The notes below the pieces were generated by a model, which was given only the letters and a program-made list of their open reading frames with translations, ran no database searches and was not told where the DNA came from. From Octopus vulgaris (Eukaryota): a stretch of DNA of 64,000 nt. Below are positions 490 to 64,000 of this stretch, piece after piece; the stretch's first letter is position 1, and each line of letters starts with the position of its first letter. Position numbers and translations under genes: made by a program. The stretch is from assembly GCA_951406725.2 (NCBI GenBank), contig OX597827.1:75950001-76014000 (forward strand), written 5' to 3'.

Positions 490-1258
490 TGTCACACTTC
501 TCAAGGACCTGGATACATTCCAGGCCAATGTCTGCAATCGAGTTGTTGACGTAAGTGAGACATTTCCCTCTCCTTACATCATGCAATTCTTTCAAATACT
601 AACTGGGGTGCTACAAGGAGATATGCTTGTACCTTATCTCTGTGCAATTGTACTGGATTATGCAATGCAGCAGAAACAGTGATGAAGACCTTGCAAAGAT
701 CACAAAGAGACCAGCAGTAACCATTACAGGCCTGGACTTCACAGACGATATAACACTCATAACTAACCAAATAGATCAAGCACAAAAGCTGTTCATCAGA
801 GTAAAAACATCAGCTTCAAAAATTGGACTGCATACAAATGTCAAGAACACTGAATACATGTCTTTCAACCAATCAAGTGATGATGCTGAACAGTTTGCTC
901 TGAATGGTTCCAAATTAAATGTTGCTGAAAATTTCAAGTACTTAGGTGGATGGGTGAGCAGTTGAGAAGCAGTCATCAAGATCAGGAAGGCACAAGTATG
1001 GACAGCCAGTCACAAACTAAAGAAGGCCTGGAAATCCAAATTGCCTGGGTAAGTCAAAACGAAGCTGTTCATTGTTACTGTCGCATCAGTGTTATTATAT
1101 GGCAGTGAAACAGGGACGTTGACAAAGAAATTATCAAATGAGCTAAATGGATGCTACACAGCGATGTTATGAATGGCCCTGAATGCTAAATGGTAGCAGC
1201 ATATGACAAATGGATGACTTTTTGAAGACCTGCCAAAAATTAGCAAGAAGATCAGGTA
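490..1258 (+). pseudogene. Degenerate non-LTR retrotransposon reverse transcriptase (RTE-like)
   Basis: Motifs TGVLQGD..PYL..IVLDY, DFTDDI (YADD equivalent), GLHTN..TEYM, FKYLG and LLYGSET, spread over frameshifts and stops. Confidence 0.85.
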
Positions 1259-7676: not shown

Positions 7677-7977
<301 letters not shown>

Positions 7978-12127: not shown

Positions 12128-12167
<40 letters not shown>

Positions 12168-12318
12168 CATAAGGGACTAAAGCCATCTGAATATGGCTAG
12201 GGACAGGGCAGGGTGGTGGGGGTGTTACTGTTGCATTTAGCCCCAGGCGAACATCGACGTCACCAGAAAGGCTCGACACCGTCACGGTGCCCTTAACCTG
12301 CAAAGGGAGGTAATTCCC

Positions 12319-12400
12319 CGATGAAGCGGAAACCACACACGGACCATGGTTTCAAGGTGTATTGCCTATCATCGGCGTGTGGTAGGCCTCCGCTTCCTCG
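12319..12400 (-). ncRNA. Type I hammerhead ribozyme, array copy 1
   Basis: Minus strand reads GAAGCGGAGGCC-tac-CACACG-CCGATGA-T-AGG-caataca-CCT-T-GAA-ACCATGGT-C|CGTGTG-t-GGTTTCCGCTTC. Confidence 0.8.
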
Positions 12401-12678
12401 ACGAATTCTCACTCTGCAGGATTTTCTTATATAGATTTTCAAGCAAAATACATTTGCTGATTTCGAAAATCTGTTCGAAAGCAATAATAATTCTCTAAAA
12501 GGGATATAGACAGTAACTGCTCGATAACATAAGGGACTAAAGCCATCTGAATATGGCTAGGGACAGGGCAGGGTGGTGGGGGTGTTACTGTTGCATTTAG
12601 CCCCAGGCGAACATCGACGTCACCAGAAAGGCTCGACACCGTCACGGTGCCCTTAACCTGCAAAGGGAGGTAATTCCC

Positions 12679-12760
12679 CGATGAAGCGGAAACCACACAC
12701 GGACCATGGTTTCAAGGTGTATTGCCTATCATCGGCGTGTGGTAGGCCTCCGCTTCCTCG
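12679..12760 (-). ncRNA. Type I hammerhead ribozyme, array copy 2
   Basis: Identical to copy 1, offset +360. Confidence 0.8.
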
Positions 12761-13038
12761 ACGAATTCTCACTCTGCAGGATTTTCTTATATAGATTTTC
12801 AAGCAAAATACATTTGCTGATTTCGAAAATCTGTTCGAAAGCAATAATAATTCTCTAAAAGGGATATAGACAGTAACTGCTCGATAACATAAGGGACTAA
12901 AGCCATCTGAATATGGCTAGGGACAGGGCAGGGTGGTGGGGGTGTTACTGTTGCATTTAGCCCCAGGCGAACATCGACGTCACCAGAAAGGCTCGACACC
13001 GTCACGGTGCCCTTAACCTGCAAAGGGAGGTAATTCCC

Positions 13039-13120
13039 CGATGAAGCGGAAACCACACACGGACCATGGTTTCAAGGTGTATTGCCTATCATCGGCGTGT
13101 GGTAGGCCTCCGCTTCCTCG
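13039..13120 (-). ncRNA. Type I hammerhead ribozyme, array copy 3
   Basis: Identical to copy 1, offset +720. Confidence 0.8.
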
Positions 13121-13570
13121 ACGAATTCTCACTCTGCAGGATTTTCTTATATAGATTTTCAAGCAAAATACATTTGCTGATTTCGAAAATCTGTTCGAAA
13201 GCAATAATAATTCTCTAAAAGGGATATAGACAGTAACTGCTCGATAACATAAGGGACTAAAGCCATCTGAATATGGCTAGGGACAGGGCAGGGTGGTGGG
13301 GGTGTTACTGTTGCATTTAGCCCCAGGCGAACATCGACGTCACCAGAAAGGCTCGACACCGTCACGGTGCCCTTAACCTGCAAAGGGAGGTAATTCCCCG
13401 ATGAAGCGTCCCTAGCCATATTCAGATGGCTTTAGTCCCTTATGTTATCGAGCAGTTACTGTCTATATCCCTTTTAGAGAATTATTATTGCTTTCGAACA
13501 GATTTTCGAAATCAGCAAATGTATTTTGCTTGAAAATCTATATAGAAAATCCTGCAGAGTGAGAATTCGT

Positions 13571-13651
13571 CGAGGAACGGAGGCCTACCACACGCCGATG
13601 ATAGGCAATACACCTTGAAACCATGGTCCGTGTGTGGTTTCCGCTTCATCG
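13571..13651 (+). ncRNA. Type I hammerhead ribozyme, inverted arm
   Basis: CCGATGA at 13595-13601, GAAA at 13617-20 and GTC at 13626-28. Predicted cleavage is after 13628. Confidence 0.8.
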
Positions 13652-13841
13652 GGGATTACCTCCCTTTGCAGGTTAAGGGCACCGTGACGGTGTCGAGCCT
13701 TTCTGGTGACGTCGATGTTCGCCTGGGGCTAAATGCAACAGTAACACCCACCACCTGCCCTGTCCCTAGCCATATTCAGATGGCTTTAGTCCCTTATGTT
13801 ATCGAGCAGCTACTGTCTATATCCCTTTAGAGAATTATTAT

Positions 13842-13874
<33 letters not shown>

Positions 13875-14446: not shown

Positions 14447-14709
14447 AATTAGAATAAGAAACGAAATGAGAAAAGCTTCTATGAAGCCATGAAAGTTGAA
14501 AACCCTTTCTATATTTCAGACACAAAGGTCCATTTCCAGAAGAAACATGTGTCTACATAGAACCTCTCATCTGGACAGCAAGATGGCAAGACCTATATGG
14601 ATACATGTTTCTTTGACTGTATCCTTCTGTGCCTGAAATATATGAAGCTTTTTTCAATTTTTGTCTCTGCATTGTTAGAAGCTCTCCTCATTTCAATTAT
14701 TATTCTACT
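14447..14709. repeat. Old imperfect foldback (inverted repeat), probably a decayed Penelope-type element
   Basis: Paired blocks aatgagaaaagcttcta/tagaagctctcctcatt, atatttcagacaca/tgtgcctgaaatat and agaaacatgtgtc/gatacatgtttct. Confidence 0.65.
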
Positions 14710-14773
14710 TTTGTATTACAATGCTTCAAGCAAACTACAACACTTTTCTTAATTTCTTATAGCATCAATGAAA

Positions 14774-14971
14774 ATGTGAAGTATATTTGCCATCTAAATA
14801 TGGCTAACCATTAAGGGTGGATGTTACTGTAGCTTGTAGCCCCAGGAGAACATCTTCTCCAGCTGGCTATCAGTGCCCTATCAGTATTTGCAAAGGGAAG
14901 TCATCCTTCCCATCGTCGACCTACGTGATACACATGGACCTGGGTTTCTGAGTATTATTTACCCATCATCA
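14774..14971 (-). mobile_element. Diverged relative of the 360-bp retrozyme unit with a 5'-truncated hammerhead
   Basis: Shares gccatct.aatatggcta, gttactgt.gc...tagccccagg.gaacatc and tgcaaaggga. Minus strand reads TGATGA-TGGGTA-aataa-TACTCA-GAAA-CCCAGG-TC-CATGTG. Confidence 0.75.
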
Positions 14972-15164
14972 TTCTCGAAAAAGGTAAGAAGGTAAAATCC
15001 TAAAATCCCAATCAAATTAAAATTCTTTGGCTGCTATGGTGGCAACACACATCCTGTGTTGCTATTATTCAGCCTCCTCAACAAAACATACTCCGCTCTA
15101 AGCTTCAGAAATTTTCCAAGCTCGTTATTCAAATTTGCCTAATCATCAAACAGTAAGATAACAA

Positions 15165-15460
15165 AAGAAAGAAAGAGGCCTTGATATTATGTAAATAGAG
15201 GAATTTATCTGTAAATGTAATATGTGACAATTATTCGGTAGCCAAGATAAAACTCTGAGTTTTGGATGCCGAGGGGGAAATCCAAGCCACCATCTCTTCA
15301 GTTATTCGGCCATCAGAAAAACACTATGAAAGGAAAAAAAAGCGTTTTTCCAATAGCCGTATAACTGAAGAGATGGTGGCATGGATTTCCACCTCGGCAT
15401 CTGAAACTCAGAGTTTTATCTTGGCTACTGAATAATTATCACATATTACATTTACTGATA
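15165..15460. mobile_element. Foldback Penelope-type element with a hammerhead in each arm (15241-15310 -, 15356-15425 +)
   Basis: Arms at 15206-15310 and 15356-15460. The plus arm reads ATAA-CTGAAGA-GATG...CATC-t-GAA-ACTCAGAGT-T-TTAT. The right end joins (TA)n. Confidence 0.8.
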
Positions 15461-19448: not shown

Positions 19449-19800
19449 GACCACCATCATAATCAGCAGCAGCAGCACCTTCATCATTTTTACATTTGCT
19501 TTGCATGGTGGGATAGATAAATGATTTGTACAATAACTGCATCTTACTAAGATAATCAGAGGACCAGGTTTTGTCTTGCTTCCATACTGTACTTTAGTAT
19601 GTTTTTATACACACACACATATGTATGCATGTATGTATGCATGTATGTATGTATCTATATATGTTTGTATGTATGTATGTATGTATGTATGTATGTATGT
19701 ATGTATGTATGCATGTATGTATGTACCTATATATGTTTGTATGTATGTATGTATAAGAATGTTGTACATTGCTTGAAGCATTGTAATATCAAAGACTGTA

Positions 19801-19977
19801 TAAAAAGAGAAAATAGACAGCTTCTGGCAAAGTGGAAAGTTTAATACAACCTTTATATTTCAGACGCAAAGCCCATCTTCAGAAGTTGGGCTTCGCATCT
19901 GAAGTATAAAGATTTTATTAAACTTTCCACATTGCCAGAAGCTGCCTAGTTTCTCACTTTTTACATTCTTCAATAAT

Positions 19978-19983
<6 letters not shown>
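19801..19983. mobile_element. Foldback Penelope-type element with decayed minimal hammerhead (19848-19887 -)
   Basis: Arms at about 19801-19875 and 19887-19963. Minus strand reads CTT-CTGAAGA-TGGGC-tttgc-GTCT-GAA-ATAT-A-AAG. The right end joins (TA)n. Confidence 0.7.
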
Positions 19984-20778: not shown

Positions 20779-21220
20779 TATAATCAAAATAAGCAACAAT
20801 TATATCCGAAGTAAAGTGGTACAATCGTTTCATGATTCTTCATTTTATTAAACACTGTAAGTATAACATCAGTTTTAAAATGTCGAGCAATCTTCAGCCA
20901 CATATAGAATTTTTCCAATAAAACGGACAATGCACATTCTTATCTCTATTTCGTTTGCCAACATTATAAAGAGGGTACATATACAGACAGAGAGGTTGAT
21001 TTCATTCTTAAGAACATGATAGTATTAAATTTACTCTCTGACAGTAGACTGAGAGATAAGAATGTGCATTGTGCGTTTGATTGGAAAATTTCTATAAATG
21101 GCTGAAGATTGCTCAACATTTGAAAACTGATGTTATACTTACAGTGTTTAATAAAATGAAGTAGCATGAAATAATCGTACCACATTACCTTGGATATGCT
21201 TGTTGCTTATTTTGATTATA
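20779..21220. mobile_element. Foldback Penelope-type element with a hammerhead in each arm (20816-20901 -, 21098-21183 +)
   Basis: Arms at 20779-20946 and 21053-21220. The consensus of the two arms is GTGG-CTGAAGA-T-TGCT...AGCA-T-GAAA-CGATCG-TA-CCAC. Confidence 0.75.
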
Positions 21221-22819: not shown

Positions 22820-23330
22820 GGCGGCGAGCTGGCAGAAACGTTAGCACGCCAGGCGAAATGCGTAGCCGTATTTCGTCTGCTGTTACATTCTGAGTTCAAA
22901 TTCCGCCGAGGTCGACTTTGCCTCTCATCCTTTCGAGATCGATAAATTAAGTACCAGTTACGCACTGGGGTCGATGTAATCGACTTAATCCGTTTGTCTG
23001 TCCTTCTTTGTCCCCCCTGTATTTAGCCCCTTGTGAGTAGTAAAGAAATAGGTATTTCGTCTGCCTTTACGTCCAGAGTTCAAATTCCGCCGAGGTCGAC
23101 TTTGCATTTCATCCTTTCGGGGTCAATAAATTAAGTACCAGTTACGCACTGAGGTCGATGTAATCGACTTAATCCGTTTCTCTGTCCTTGTTTGTCCCCT
23201 CTGTATTTAGCCCCTTGTGAGTAGTAAAGAAATAGGTATTTCGTCTGCCTTTACGTCCAGAGTTCAAATTCCGCCGAGGTTGAATTTGCCTTTCATCCTT
23301 TCGAGGTCGATAAATTAGTAAAGAAATACA
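22820..23330 (+). mobile_element. SINE with internal 184-bp tandem reiteration, enclosed by a single 15-bp TSD
   Basis: TSD tatcttcttacataa at 22805-19 and 23331-45. gtatttcgtctg recurs at 22868, 23052 and 23236. Confidence 0.9.
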
Positions 23331-28281: not shown

Positions 28282-28680
28282 CTAGCAGTATCGCCCGGCA
28301 TTGCTCGGGTTTGTAAGGGAAATAACTATATAAGCATTTTTAGAGATGTAAAGTATAATAGCCATCTCAATATGGCTAACCACAAAGGGGGAGGGGTGTT
28401 ACTGTAGCTTTTTACGTTCTGAGATTTAATAATAAATTTTTAGAGAGTTACTTCCCTTATATATGCCAAAAATGCATTAAAAATGGGAAAAATTGATGGT
28501 AAATTTTTTTTTATATTGTAGACTCATTGTAGACGTGCGCTAATACCCAGAAGGGCTCGATATGAATCACGACTATAAGATACCCGGTTTTGGTTAAACT
28601 GCACTGCAAAATGTGGGAGTAGTTAGGAATCTAAATCGTAGGAGACAGACAGCACACAACCTCACTTTTATATATAAAGA
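28282..28680 (-). mobile_element. Non-autonomous Helitron
   Basis: Minus strand starts a|TCtttatatataaaag and ends with the hairpin cccgagcaatgccggg followed by CTAG|t. No TSD. Confidence 0.8.
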
Positions 28681-28686
28681 TATATC

Positions 28687-28935
28687 TTTGAAAGAACTTT
28701 TTCTTCACTCATTCCCTTCCGGTCATTTCAATATGTGACCACGTGTGTATCATTGGCGATTTTCTTTCTCCGTCTTGTTTTCCTTGGACTTTTCCTTTCT
28801 CTATGTTTCTGATGAAGAGCTCCGCTCGAAACGTTAAATCCTCCTTCTTTCTTTCCTTTCCTGAACGTCCAATAACACTATACTTGTTCCACATAATCGC
28901 ATTGTTGTGTTTTCTCTTTGTTCATGTTTGGATTA
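28687..28935 (+). mobile_element. Penelope-type short element with minimal hammerhead (28805-28839)
   Basis: Reads GTTT-CTGATGA-A-GAGC-tcc-GCTC-GAA-ACGT-T-AAAT. Homologous to 7677-7871. Confidence 0.75.
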
Positions 28936-28937
28936 TC

Positions 28938-29710
28938 GAAATCGATCAATGGAAATTGCAGATGTGTTACCAGTGCCGGTGGCATGTCGATACTCTACTT
29001 GTGAAGACCCGTTGAGGCAAGTGAGGATCAGAAATGGAAATCGATCAATGGAAATTGCAGATGTGTTACCAGTGCCGGTGGCATGTCGAAACTCTACTTG
29101 TGAAGACCCGTTGAGGCAAGTGAGGATCAGAATGGAAATCGATCAATGGAAATTGCAGATGTGTTACCAGTGCCGGTGGCATGTCGATACTCTACTTGTG
29201 AAGACCCGTTGAGGCAAGTGAGGATCAGAAATGGAAATCGATCAATGGAAATTGCAGATGTGTTACCAGTGCCGGTGGCATGTCGAAACTCTACTTGTGA
29301 AGACCCGTTGAGGCAAGTGAGGATCAGAATGGAAATCGATCAATGGAAATTGCAGATGTGTTACCAGTGCCGGTGGCATGTAAGAGAACCTTCTGTTTCG
29401 CGACCGTTGCCAGCACCGCCCCGTTTCGTGTCCGTTGCCAGCCTCGCCTGGCCCTTGTGCCGGTGGCACATAAAAAGCACCATCCGTTCGTGGCCGTTTG
29501 CCAGCTCTGTCTGGCACCTGTGCGGGTGGCATGTAAAAAGCACCCACTACACTCACGGAGTGGTTGGCGTTAGGAAGGGCATCCAGCCGTAGAAACACTG
29601 CCAGATTTGACTGGGCCTGATGAAGCCTTCTGGCTTCACAGACCCCAGTAGAACCGTCCAACCCATGCTAGCATGGAAAACGGACGCTAAACGACGATGA
29701 TGATGATGAT
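28938..29710 (+). mobile_element. RTE 3' UTR insertion headed by a 99/98-bp tandem array
   Basis: Units start at 28938, 29037, 29135, 29234 and 29332. The sequence continues into the conserved tail and (GAT)n. Confidence 0.85.
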
Positions 29711-30148: not shown

Positions 30149-30177
<29 letters not shown>

Positions 30178-30180
<3 letters not shown>

Positions 30181-30792
30181 ACATAAGGGACTAAAGCCAT
30201 CTGAATATGGCTAGGGACAGGGCAGGGTGGTGGGGGTGTTACTGTTGCATTTAGCCCCAGGCGAACATCGACGTCACCAGAAAGGCCCGACACCGTCACG
30301 GTGTCCTTAACCTGCAAAGGGAGGTAATTCCCCGATGAAGCGGAAACCACACATGGACCATGGTTTCAAGGTGTATTGCCTATCGTCGGCGTGTGGTAGG
30401 CTTCCGCTTCCTCGACGAATTCTCACTCTGCAGGATATTCATATATAGATTTTCAAGCAAAATACATTTGCTGATTTCGAAAATCTGTTCGAAAGCAATA
30501 ATAATTCTCTAAAAGGGATATAGACAGTAACTGCTCGATAACATAAGGGACTAAAGCCATCTGAATATGGCTAGGGACAGGGCAGGGTGGTGGGGGTGTT
30601 ACTGTTGCATTTGCAGGTTAAGGACACCGTGACGGTGTCGGGCCTTTCTGGTGACGTCGATGTTCGCCTGGGGCTAAATGCAACAGTAACACCCCCACCA
30701 CCCTGCCCTGTCCCTAGCCATATTCAGATGGCTTTAGTCCCTTATGTTATCGAGCAGTTACTGTCTATATCCCTTTTAGAGAATTATTATTG

Positions 30793-30794
<2 letters not shown>
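30178..30794. mobile_element. Second 360-bp retrozyme-like locus: 1.2 direct copies plus an inverted 185-nt arm, in (TA)n
   Basis: About 7 substitutions relative to the 12164 unit (counted by eye). The inversion junction has a TTT overlap at 30610-12. The outer ends match locus 1. Confidence 0.9.
30333..30414 (-). ncRNA. Type I hammerhead ribozyme, locus 2
   Basis: Core is CCGACGA, otherwise as in the array copies. One stem I G-U becomes A-U, and there is one C-A mismatch next to the cleavage site. Confidence 0.7.
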
Positions 30795-30834
<40 letters not shown>

Positions 30835-31403: not shown

Positions 31404-32010
31404 AGGCGCAGGAGTGGCTGTGTGGTAAGTAGCTTGCTAACCAACCACACGGTTGCAGGTTCAGTCCACTGCGTGGCATCTTGGGCAAGTGTCTTCTGCT
31501 ATAGCCCCGGGCCGACCAATGCCTTGTGAGTGGATTTGGTAGACGGAAACTGAAAGAAGCCTGTCGTATATATGTATATGTGTGTTTGTGTGTCTGTGTT
31601 TGTCCCCCCTAGCATTGCTTGACAACCGATGCTGGTGTGTTTATGTCCCCGTCACTTAGCGGTTCGGCAAAAAGAGACCGATAGAATAAGTACTAAAAGG
31701 TGGTGCTCCAGCATGGCCGCAGTCAAATGACTGAAACAAGTAAAAGAGTAAAAGAGTAAATTATTTACTGGTAGAATTCGGTATGTAAATATAACCGATT
31801 AATGTGTTTGTCCCCCCTAGCATTGCTTGACAACCGATGCTGGTGTGTTTATGTCCCCGTCACTTAGCGGTTCGGCAAAAAGAGACCGATAGAATAAGTA
31901 CTAAAAGGTGGTGCTCCAGCATGGCCGCAGTCAAATGACTGAAACAAGTAAAAGAGTAAAAGAGTAAATTATTTACTGGTAGAATTCGGTATGTAAATAT
32001 AACCGATTAA
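31404..32010 (+). mobile_element. CORE-type tRNA SINE with a 208-bp tandem duplication of its 3' half plus flank
   Basis: Head aggcgcaggagtggctgtgtggtaag...ggttcagtcc. 31595-31802 is repeated at 31803-32010. An opposite-strand copy lies at about 30918-31335. Confidence 0.9.
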
Positions 32011-32045
32011 TGGTAGGAACTTCTGTAAAGTTCAGTATATATATC

Positions 32046-32295
32046 GTATATAAATAAAAAGGCAGGCAACAGATTGCTTGGTCGCATACCGAAAATTTAG
32101 AAATAGCAGTCAAGACTATTTATTTCTATTTTCTACAAGTGGGACTCCACAAACGACATATCCCTGGTGAATTACAGGGATATGTCGTATGTGGAGTCCC
32201 ACTTGTAGAAAATAGAAATAAACAGTCTTGACTGCTATTTCTAAATTTTCGGTATGCGGCCAAGCAACCTGTTGCCTGCCTTTTTATTTATATAC
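32046..32295. repeat. Near-perfect 250-bp palindrome in TA-rich flanks
   Basis: Arms of about 120 bp around ccctg-gtgaatta-caggg, with only a few mismatches. Confidence 0.95.
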
Positions 32296-32323
32296 AATAT
32301 ATATATATGTATGTATATATATA

Positions 32324-44301: not shown

Positions 44302-45585
44302 AATCTCCCTGATAACTATGCTAAGGGTACCCTCTGAGAATATCCCTGAGAACTACATTAAGGGTACTCCTTGAGAATCTCCCTGAGAACTATGCTAAGG
44401 GTTCACTCTGAAGATCTCCCTGAGAACTACACTAAGGGTACCTCTTGAGAACTATGCTAAGGGTACACTCTGAAGACCTCCCTGAGAACTACACTAAGGG
44501 TACCCTCTGAGAATCTCCTTGAGAACTACGCTAAGGGTACACTGATGATCTCCCTGAGAACTACACTAAGGGTACCCTCTGAGAATCTCCCTGAGAACTA
44601 CACTAAGGGTACCCTTTGAGAATCTCCTTGAGAACTATGCTAAGGGTTCACTCTGAAGATCTCCTTGAGAACTACACTAAGGGTACCCTCTGAGAATCTC
44701 CCTGAGAACTACACTAAGGGTACCTTCTGAGACTCTCCCTGAGAACTACACTAAGGGTACCTCTTGAGAACTATGTTATGGGTACACTCTGAAGATCTCC
44801 CTGAGAACTACGCTAAGGGTACCCTTTGAGAATCTCCTTGAGAACTATGCTAAGGGTACACTCTGAAGACCTCCCTGAGAACTACACTAAGGGTACCCTC
44901 TGAGAATCTCCTTGAGAACTACGCTAAGGGTACACTGATGATCTCCCTGAGAACTACACTAAGGGTACCTCTTGAGAACTATGTTAAGGGTACACTCTGA
45001 AGATCTCCCTGAGAACTACACTAAACTTCATATGCTAAGGGTACCCTCTGAGAATCTCCCTGAGAACTACATTAAGGGTACTCCTTGAGAATCTCCCTGA
45101 GAACTACTAAGGGTACACTCTGAAGATCTCCCTGAGAACTACACTAAGGGTACCTCTTGAGAACTATGCTAAGGGTACTCTCTGAGAATCTCCCTGAGAA
45201 CTACGCTAAGGTACACTGATGATCTCCCTGAGAACTACACTAAGGGTACCCTCTGAGAATCTCCTGAGAACTAACTACCTTCATCTCCTGAGAACTACAC
45301 AAAGGGTACTCTTTGAGAATCTCCTTGACAACTATGCTAAGGGTACACTCTGAAGATCTCCCTGAGAACTACACTAAGGGTACCTTCTGAGAATCTCCCT
45401 GAGAACTACACTACCTTGAGAACTATGCTAAGGGTACACTCTGAAGATCTCCCTGAGAACTACACTAAGGGTACCCTTTGAGAATCTCCTTGAGAACTAC
45501 GCTAAAGGTACACCTGATGATCTCCCTGAGAACTACACTAAGGGTACCCTCTGAGAATCTCCCTGAGAACTACACTAAGGGTACA
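44302..45585 (+). repeat. Minisatellite of about 37 bp expanded inside a SINE (SINE about 44140-45680)
   Basis: Unit gaatctccctgagaactacactaagggtaccctctga with shorter variants, about 35 copies. It matches the single-copy SINE segment at 9860-9890. Confidence 0.95.
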
Positions 45586-62289: not shown

Positions 62290-64000
62290 AGGGTCATAGT
62301 CCAACTAATTAGAGAGAGAGTTAGCCTAGATGAGATGTAGCTTGGTTTTGTGCCTGGCAGAAGCACCACTGATGCCATATTCATGGTTCAACAACTGCAG
62401 GAGAAATACCTAGCCAAAGATAAACACCTATACTTAGCTTTTGTGGACTTGGAGAAAGCTTTTGACAGGGTCCCCCCCGATCCCTTATCTGGTGAGCAAT
62501 GCAGAAACTGGAGATTTACGAATGGTTAATAAGGGCTGTACAAGCCCTCTACAGAGAGGCTAGTAGTAAGGTTAGAATTGGCAATGAGTACAGTGAAGAA
62601 TTCAGGGTAGAATTTGGCGTCCTCCAGGCAATAACGGGGGAATTTAAGACGGGTTGTCCCTGGGAGCTCCTCTATGCTGATGACCTGGCCCTTGTAGCAG
62701 AATCACTACCGGAACTAGAGAAGAAATTTCGTGTGTGGAAGCTATGTTTCAAATCAAAAGGCCTTAGAGTCAATGTAGCAAAGACCAAAGTTATAGTAAG
62801 TAGGAAGGTGAACTCACCACACACCCCTTCAAGTAGGTGGCCCTGCTCGATCTGTAGAAAAGGTGTAGGTAGAAACTCCATAAGATGTACCCAGTGTATG
62901 GATACATAAGAGGTGCAGCAATATCAAAGGAAAATTAAACAAGAAGACAGCTTTCGTGTGCGGCAGATGCACAGGGGCAATAGACACCATTGATACTCAG
63001 AAAACAGATTCCATCACACTCCAAGGGAAGAAGCTAGAACTAGTTGATTGCTTCCGTTACCTAGGTGACCAAGTAAGTAGCAGGGGTGGATGCTCAGAGT
63101 GTGTTACCACTAAAATAAGAATAGCCTGGGCAAAGTTTAGGAAGCTTCTCCCCCTACTGGCGACAAAGGGTCTCTCGCTCAGAGTGAAAGGTAGATTGTA
63201 TGATGCATGTGTGTGAACTGCCATGCTTCATGGCAATGAAACATGGACCATGACTGTGGAGGACATGCGTAGGCTTGAAAGAAATGAAGCTTGCATGATC
63301 CACTGGATGTGTAATGTCAGCGTCCATGCACAACAGAGTGTAAGCGTCCTGAGAGAAATGTTGGGCATAAGAAGCATTGGATGCAGCGTGCAGGAGAGAC
63401 AATTGCGTTGGTACGGTCATGTACTACTGATGGATGAGGAGAGATGTGTGAAGAAGTGCCACTCCCAAACTGTTGAAACGAATCTGGGGTAGAGGTAGAC
63501 CCAGGAAGACATGGGATGAGGTGGTCAAGCATGACCTTCGTACTTTGAGCCTCACAGAGGCTATGACGAAAGACCGAGACCTCTGGAGATATGCTGTGAC
63601 TTCGAAGACCCAACAAATGAAGTGAGTTCATGACTCGCAGGACGGCCTGCTGTGCTAACCTTGGATCATAGAGTGACCTGCTGTTCTTGAGGAGACCTGT
63701 TGAGTCAAGTAAGTCAACATCAAAATAAAAATTCAAATGGAAATTGTAGTTAAGACACCCATGCCGGTAACATGTAAAATGCACCGTCCGAATGCAGCGG
63801 ATACTAGCATCGCCTGACTGGTGTCTGTGTCGGTGACACGTAAAAGCACCAACCGATCGTGGCCGTTTGCCAGCCTGCTCTGGTCCCTGTGCCAGTGGCA
63901 TGTAAAAAACACCCACTACACTCACGGAGTGGTTGGCTTTAGGAAGGGCATCCAGCGGTAGAAACACTGCCAAATCAGACTAGAGCCTGGTAAAGCCTCC
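62290..64000 (+). mobile_element. 5'-truncated RTE LINE: RT pseudogene with PHD-like insert, and 3' UTR running off the window end
   Basis: GFVPGRSTTDAIF..QQLQEKY, AFVDLEKAFDRVP, LLYADDL, GLRVNVAKTK, FRYLG, HGNETW and LRWYGHV, with stops and frameshifts. Confidence 0.92.

What the first reader, a model, noticed from the sequence alone, without database searches (positions are those of the whole stretch)
13408..13842. Reproducible insertion architecture: two outward-facing 3' ends offset by about 40 nt, joined by a variable inversion
Seen: loci 12164-13842 and 30178-30794 both start at ATAACATAAGGG after (TA)n and both end at ...AGAGAATTATTATT(GC) before (TA)n. The inverted arm therefore extends about 40 nt beyond the other end. 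The internal inversion points differ, with 1-nt and 3-nt microhomology. In ribozyme-sense terms both outer ends are 3' ends, and neither coincides with the cleavage site. Established: Penelope-like elements form inverted terminal structures with a short extra tail, and some target microsatellites. Inference: two fixed priming sites on the RNA are used on opposite target strands by a Penelope-type RT/GIY-YIG enzyme supplied in trans.
Basis: partly seen in the sequence, partly recalled or inferred. Interest (0 to 1): 0.72.

Follow-up and report, generated by a model that had tools for sequence, protein, structure and literature searches.

The report
Retrozyme insertions with Penelope tail signature
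Two copies of a 360-base non-coding repeat with a predicted hammerhead ribozyme sit in TA microsatellites as head-to-head arms whose outer ends differ by 41-44 bases, the known footprint of Penelope retrotransposons, which likely supplied the enzyme that pasted them in.

Summary
Observation confirmed. Loci 12164-13842 and 30178-30794 are head-to-head arrays of one 360-nt unit inserted in (TA)n. Both left ends fall at unit position 1, and the right ends at 320 and 317 (offsets 41 and 44 nt). The inner junctions differ (1- and 3-nt microhomology). Chance of both ends coinciding is about 5e-4, and adjacent flanks are not shared. The minus strand carries a type I hammerhead motif (U4C core, palindromic loop III) at the tip of a 124-nt hairpin, so both outer ends are 3' ends, 178 and 219-222 nt past the predicted cut. 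This is an animal non-LTR retrozyme with the published Penelope-like (PLE) layout: inverted truncated copy, 30-40 bp tail on one end, (TA)n target. A second, older family in the window repeats the layout. No genome was held, so the genome-wide end tally was not done and no autonomous partner was found. Modest addition: insertion-level support for PLE mobilisation of a retrozyme.

The parts
12131..12163 (.). (TA)n target, left of locus 1
   Evidence: 33 nt
12164..13408 (-). Locus 1 long arm: 3.46 identical 360-nt units; RNA-sense 3' end (site A, U1) at 12164
12297..12420 (-). 124-nt hairpin bearing the hammerhead motif at its tip
   Evidence: -61.7 kcal/mol, z -6.9, 0 of 200 shuffles as stable
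12333..12382 (-). Predicted type I hammerhead (core CCGAUGA, 3-bp stem II on a U-U pair, palindromic CAUG loop III, GUC site, cut between 12342 and 12341); repeated at 12693-12742 and 13053-13102
   Evidence: own descriptor scan; no Rfam hit
12306..12391 (+). Antisense hammerhead-like motif lacking stem II; probably a by-product of the hairpin
   Evidence: constrained fold 21 kcal/mol above MFE
13408..13842 (+). Locus 1 inverted arm, 1.23 units, 3' end at U320 (site B)
13588..13637 (+). Predicted hammerhead copy in the inverted arm, pointing outward
   Evidence: core 13595, cut after 13628
13803..13842 (+). Tail of locus 1 (U360 to U320)
13843..13867 (.). (TA)n target, right of locus 1
   Evidence: 25 nt
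30152..30177 (.). (TA)n target, left of locus 2
   Evidence: 26 nt
30178..30612 (-). Locus 2 long arm, 1.21 units, 3' end at U1; 7 substitutions against locus 1, two of them in the hammerhead (N7 and stem I)
30610..30794 (+). Locus 2 inverted arm, U141 to U317; shares variants U110 and U127 with its own long arm
30751..30794 (+). Tail of locus 2, 44 nt
30795..30829 (.). (TA)n target, right of locus 2
   Evidence: 35 nt
14789..14975 (-). Older diverged relative of the unit that keeps a minus-strand hammerhead-like core with a different stem II but not the plus-strand motif

Best explanation
These are two insertions of a non-coding 360-nt repeat with a predicted hammerhead ribozyme (an animal non-LTR retrozyme), each built of two head-to-head arms and likely integrated by a Penelope-like RT/GIY-YIG enzyme inferred to act in trans. 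Inferred steps: the enzyme nicks both strands of a (TA)n tract. Each 3' OH primes cDNA inside the retrozyme RNA at one of two nearby start sites, A (U1) or B (U317-320), not at the ribozyme cut. Each cDNA runs a variable distance along a multimeric or circular template, and the two cDNAs are joined at their variable inner ends through 1-3 nt of microhomology. The 41-44-nt tail is the distance between A and B. Shown: architecture, fixed outer and variable inner ends, (TA)n target, non-coding unit, arms longer than one unit (3 of 4 arms), shared variants within locus 2. Predicted: ribozyme fold and polarity. Inferred from published PLE work: enzyme, priming and joining.
For: Fixed outer ends with P about 5e-4 and not at the best microhomologies. 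Different inner junctions. Hammerhead motifs point outward in both arms of locus 1. The palindromic short loop III is the PLE-type form (PMC6765202 passage). Tail length and one-sidedness match PLE descriptions (PMC8557442; PMC3846280). The tail equals the interval between two RT starts in vitro, with both strands extended and ribozyme cleavage not needed (PMC11167929). The two locus 2 arms share U110 and U127, absent from locus 1, so both arms came from one template variant. The locus 2 inverted arm (U317-360-141) is not present as one contiguous stretch in its long arm (which stops at U75), so it is not a plain copy of what remains there. A second family with hammerhead-like cores (19784-19978 and 14447-14710) has head-to-head arms with the same ~30-nt extension on one arm only in 2 of 2 copies aligned. 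PLE-type minimal hammerhead stumps lie at 7679-7872 and 28734-28935.
Against: Only 2 loci of this family. No autonomous PLE found: 8 non-repetitive long frames of the window gave only two weak RVT_1 hits below Pfam's cut-off, whose motifs look LINE-like from recall. Six frames of the unit gave no credible Pfam hit and 2 of 2 protein searches were empty. Laying 4 runs listed no strand-switch joints and no shared end positions. Site B lies in an ATT-rich stretch, the motif the anole endonuclease cuts, so it may be a cut rather than a start. The tail (41-44 nt) is slightly longer than the 30-40 bp described, and the starts are 178-222 nt from the cut against roughly 85-130 nt in the anole element (my arithmetic from PMC11167929). 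The hammerhead has a U4C core, no Rfam hit, is not the MFE fold (7.4 kcal/mol above it), and the locus 2 copy failed my descriptor. Cleavage is untested.
Confidence: 0.65

Rival explanations
1. Still PLE-made, but with one priming event. The inverted arm arises by fold-back or self-priming, and the tail end is set by GIY-YIG cleavage while the intermediate is resolved.
For: Proposed in PMC8557442 (tail from EN-mediated resolution) and PMC3846280 (self-priming). Site B is ATT-rich. Shared variants between the locus 2 arms fit copying of one arm from the other.
Against: No perfect palindrome at either junction; the locus 2 inverted arm needs sequence missing from the long arm unless the centre was deleted later. 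The later in vitro study maps the tail to two RT starts.
Confidence: 0.22
2. A non-PLE LINE enzyme made the structure by L1-type twin priming on one multimeric RNA (mechanism recalled, not looked up).
For: RT fragments that look LINE-like lie in the window. Twin priming gives head-to-head arms with microhomology joints. PMC7229834 names LINEs as possible helpers.
Against: Twin priming predicts a variable second priming site and a first cDNA ending near it. Here site B is fixed within 3 nt, and the inner ends (U165, U75, U41, U141) are not near A or B. There is no poly(A) or simple-repeat tail of the unit's own.
Confidence: 0.07
3. Assembly or sequencing fold-back artefact, or DNA-level duplication of one locus.
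For: The locus 1 inverted arm has 7 nt missing at 6 sites, 5 of them in base runs, which resembles the nanopore errors reported for inverted duplicates (PMC7229812, search listing and abstract start only). The long arm's copies are 100% identical.
Against: Flanks differ on both sides of each locus and between loci. Inner junctions, arm lengths and 7 substitutions differ between loci. Locus 2 has no indels. The errors affect letters, not the layout.
Confidence: 0.04

Closest known systems
Penelope-like element insertions with inverted pLTR and tail (PMC8557442, PMC3846280; passages read)
   Same: Head-to-head inverted truncated copy, short extension on one end only, microhomology junctions, microsatellite target, hammerhead in the terminal repeat.
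   Different: No RT/GIY-YIG ORF; the whole insert is a 360-nt unit in tandem; tail 41-44 rather than 30-40 bp; no measurable TSD.
Poseidon element of Anolis carolinensis, PAc (PMC11167929; parts 1-2 of 4 read, covering the main text)
   Same: Two adjacent internal RT start sites define the tail; AT-rich target; ends downstream of, not at, the hammerhead cut.
   Different: PAc is autonomous and its starts lie inside the ORF, closer to the cut, in an AC-rich stem-loop. Here the region between A and B folds only weakly (z -0.9).
Metazoan non-LTR retrozymes (PMC7229834, passages and Discussion; bioRxiv 10.64898/2026.07.22.740005, parts 1-3 of 5)
   Same: 150-450 bp tandem unit with a type I hammerhead, non-coding, high copy; PLE proposed as helper; pLTR homology shown in Xenopus.
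   Different: The preprint's main text has 0 hits for 'tail', 'junction' and 'inversion'; it argues from co-occurrence and pLTR phylogeny, not from insertion ends. The PMC7229834 passages and Discussion I read describe no inverted or tailed insertions.
Non-autonomous Chlamys PLEs such as MRC1 (PMC8557442 passage)
   Same: Non-coding PLE-dependent elements with multicopy head-to-tail insertions.
   Different: Algal, and that clade lacks canonical hammerheads.

Membership tests
Metazoan non-LTR retrozyme | Tandem repeat of about 150-450 bp | tested here: met
   360 nt, 3.5 copies
Metazoan non-LTR retrozyme | Type I hammerhead motif in consecutive units | tested here: met
   Descriptor hit in 4 of 5 full hammerhead regions, 3 of them consecutive; U4C variant, reported as natural with lower activity (PMC3088659 passage); no Rfam hit
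Metazoan non-LTR retrozyme | No protein coding | tested here: met
   Longest frames 90 and 87 aa, no homologue; weak negative for the database searches
Metazoan non-LTR retrozyme | Self-cleavage and circular RNA accumulation | not testable with these tools
   390-nt contigs that return to their start in X16 and X3 fit a circle or a tandem array alike; X3 is RNA only by guess
Metazoan non-LTR retrozyme | Dispersed multicopy family | tested here: met
   1383 contigs of run X1 laid on one unit; 2 young loci plus 1 old relative in 64 kb
Autonomous EN+ Penelope-like element | Single ORF with PLE RT and GIY-YIG endonuclease | tested here: not met
   None in the loci or found in the window
PLE-mobilised insertion (works like) | Inverted truncated copy giving outward-facing 3' ends | tested here: met
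PLE-mobilised insertion (works like) | Short tail on one end only | tested here: met
   41 and 44 unit positions, 2 of 2 loci
PLE-mobilised insertion (works like) | AT-rich or microsatellite target | tested here: met
   4 of 4 ends in (TA)n
PLE-mobilised insertion (works like) | Sequence homology to the pLTR of an autonomous PLE | not testable with these tools
   No genome held; pattern scans of three collections empty
PLE-mobilised insertion (works like) | Target-site duplication or its absence | tested here: inconclusive
   Hidden by (TA)n on both sides
Viroid-like RNA with ribozymes in both polarities | Competent ribozyme on each strand | tested here: inconclusive
   Plus motif has core, stem III and stem I (any hit in 19 of 20000 shuffled units) but no stem II, costs 21 kcal/mol and is absent from the one older relative

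The most novel reading that the evidence does not exclude
The unit is an ambisense retrozyme: it has working hammerheads in both polarities, overlapping in one hairpin as in viroids, so both strands can be cut to unit length and circularised, and a PLE enzyme dimer reverse-transcribes two circles at once into the two arms of each insertion. That would link viroid-like symmetric replication to a genomic animal retroelement.
Probability: 0.07. Interest if true: 0.75.

Novelty: new member of a known kind. Interest (0 to 1): 0.32.

Why it matters
Which enzyme moves animal retrozymes has been argued from co-occurrence and pLTR homology. A retrozyme whose insertions carry the PLE tail and inversion is a more direct footprint. 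It gives a small, young, high-copy substrate with two predicted start sites for testing PLE priming and the circular-template model. The architecture and the two-start mechanism themselves are already published for PLEs.

Tried and rejected
Whole genome: none held, so no genome-wide end tally and no search for an adjacent PLE ORF. Exact-pattern scans found 0 hits in metagenome contigs (2 scans), viral contigs and prokaryote genomes. Rfam: 0 hits at gathering score, 1 chance hit at E 8.1. Sequencing runs: 20 of 24 listed runs hold the unit; no RNA holder listed. I laid 4 of those 20 on one unit: only 10 of 79 loose ends and 20 of 1427 pieces were shown, no strand-switch joint was listed, and contigs drop rare forms, so this is no test. 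Summed depth in X1 rises across U309-330, which would fit site B, but the tool states depth cannot rank parts, so I did not count it. ORF-start idea (an ATG 24 nt before site A, as in a rotifer pLTR): no homologues. Microhomology-determined ends rejected. Segmental duplication rejected. tRNA or Pol III A/B boxes not found. A stem-loop spanning the tail is not significant (38 of 200 shuffles as stable). Literature searches. Searches are the basis for saying I found no description of tailed, inverted retrozyme insertions; subscription papers and all supplements were not seen (the preprint's are closed), and could hold such data.

Full report
Observation. The window is a microsatellite-rich animal-like sequence (it reminds me of octopus repeats; recalled, untested). 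A 360-nt unit U (12164-12523) forms two young insertions. Locus 1 has a 1245-nt arm (3.46 identical units, U1 to U165) and an inverted arm from U41 back through a full unit to U320, ending at 13842. Locus 2 has a 435-nt arm (U1 to U75 of a second unit) and an inverted arm from U141 to U317, ending at 30794. The junctions overlap by 1 and 3 nt. All four ends abut 25-35 nt of (TA)n. The inverted arm thus runs 41 and 44 unit positions past the point where the other arm stops. Random ends would coincide this well with P = 4.5e-4, and the ends avoid the unit's best TA microhomologies. Flanks share only dispersed repeats.

Polarity. Rfam gave nothing. My own descriptor found a type I hammerhead motif on the minus strand of the long arm in 4 of 5 full copies; the locus 2 copy has a stem I mismatch. 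It has a CCGAUGA core (U4C, a natural but weaker variant per a PMC3088659 passage), a 3-bp stem II, a palindromic CAUG loop III and a GUC site. It caps a 124-nt hairpin (z -6.9; the minus strand is 10.7 kcal/mol more stable than the plus). An older relative at 14789-14975 keeps a similar core with a different stem II. Both outer ends are therefore RNA-sense 3' ends, 178 and 219-222 nt past the predicted cut. The unit's frames have no homologues. Run X1 holds many copies (1383 contigs laid), and X16 and X3 each give a 390-nt contig that returns to its start, which fits a circle or a tandem array. This fits a metazoan non-LTR retrozyme.

Mechanism. Fixed outer 3' ends, variable inner ends and microhomology joints are what two target-primed cDNAs meeting in the middle would leave. 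Three of four arms exceed one unit, so the template was multimeric or circular (later local expansion is not excluded). The locus 2 arms share two variants absent from locus 1, so both arms came from one template variant. Published PLE insertions have an inverted 5'-truncated copy and a 30-40 bp tail on one end, and some target (TA)n (PMC8557442, 12 of 19 passages; PMC3846280, 12 of 15 passages; PMC8969392 passages). For the anole PLE, purified protein cut and extended both target strands, began reverse transcription at two adjacent internal sites that bound the tail, and did not need ribozyme cleavage (PMC11167929, parts 1-2 of 4). I take this as the likely mechanism (0.65). The enzyme, priming and joining are inferred, not shown.

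Internal replicate. A self-comparison of the window gave 20 local inverted pairs, of which I examined 11. Three carry hammerhead-like cores facing outward in both arms. One of them (19784-19978) and its relative (14447-14710) share a ~30-nt extension on one arm only, so a second family shows the tail. The other two have no second copy in the window with which to define a tail. Two PLE-type minimal hammerhead stumps also occur. No PLE ORF was found.

Against and unresolved. There are only two loci, and no genome was held. Site B is ATT-rich and could be an endonuclease cut (rival, 0.22). L1-type twin priming fits poorly (0.07). The 7 missing bases in the locus 1 inverted arm look like long-read errors but do not affect the layout (0.04 for artefact).

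Side finding. The plus strand has an overlapping hammerhead-like motif at 12306-12391. Any descriptor hit arose in 19 of 20000 shuffled units, but that control ignores the hairpin, which supplies its stem III. The motif lacks stem II, costs 21 kcal/mol against 7.4 for the minus motif, and is missing from the older relative. I rate it a probable by-product; as the novel case it gets 0.07.

Novelty. The architecture and the two-start mechanism are known for PLEs. PLE mobilisation of animal retrozymes has been proposed (PMC7229834 passages and Discussion; PMC7761336 passages) and supported by pLTR homology (bioRxiv 10.64898/2026.07.22.740005, parts 1-3 of 5). I found no description of tailed, inverted retrozyme insertions, but saw no supplements or subscription papers. 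One earlier scan note describes similar palindromic PLE stumps in another genome (not tested by me). Verdict: real, a new member of a known kind, interest 0.32.

Noticed in passing
window 19784-19978 and 14447-14710: Second, older family of head-to-head palindromes, with hammerhead-like cores in the 19.8-kb copy and the same ~30-nt extension on one arm in both copies.
   Followed up: partly
window 15206-15460 and 20779-21220: Two more palindromes with hammerhead-like cores facing outward in both arms; the first abuts (TA)n.
   Followed up: partly
window 7679-7872 (-) and 28734-28935 (+): Two 79%-identical pLTR-like stumps with a minimal hammerhead and palindromic loop III; the first ends at (TA)n.
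   Followed up: partly
window 12306-12391 (+): Antisense hammerhead-like motif overlapping the minus-strand one; both have the CCGAUGA core.
   Followed up: partly
window 28283-28680: Element whose ends look Helentron/HINE-like (recalled) and which contains about 55 nt similar to U18-75.
   Followed up: no
window 32036-32305: 270-nt palindrome, 94% self-complementary, TA-flanked, no hammerhead core found; MITE or PLE stump.
   Followed up: no
window 13530-13830: Seven missing bases at six sites confined to the locus 1 inverted arm, mostly in base runs; possible long-read error in an inverted repeat.
   Followed up: partly
window 28938-29381, 31595-32012, 22868-23317, 44302-45584: Other tandem arrays: 197-nt and 208-nt units at 100% identity, a 184-nt unit, and a 37-nt-based higher-order minisatellite.
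   Followed up: no
window 603-965 and 62496-62909: Weak RVT_1 fragments below Pfam's cut-off, LINE-like by recalled motifs.
   Followed up: partly
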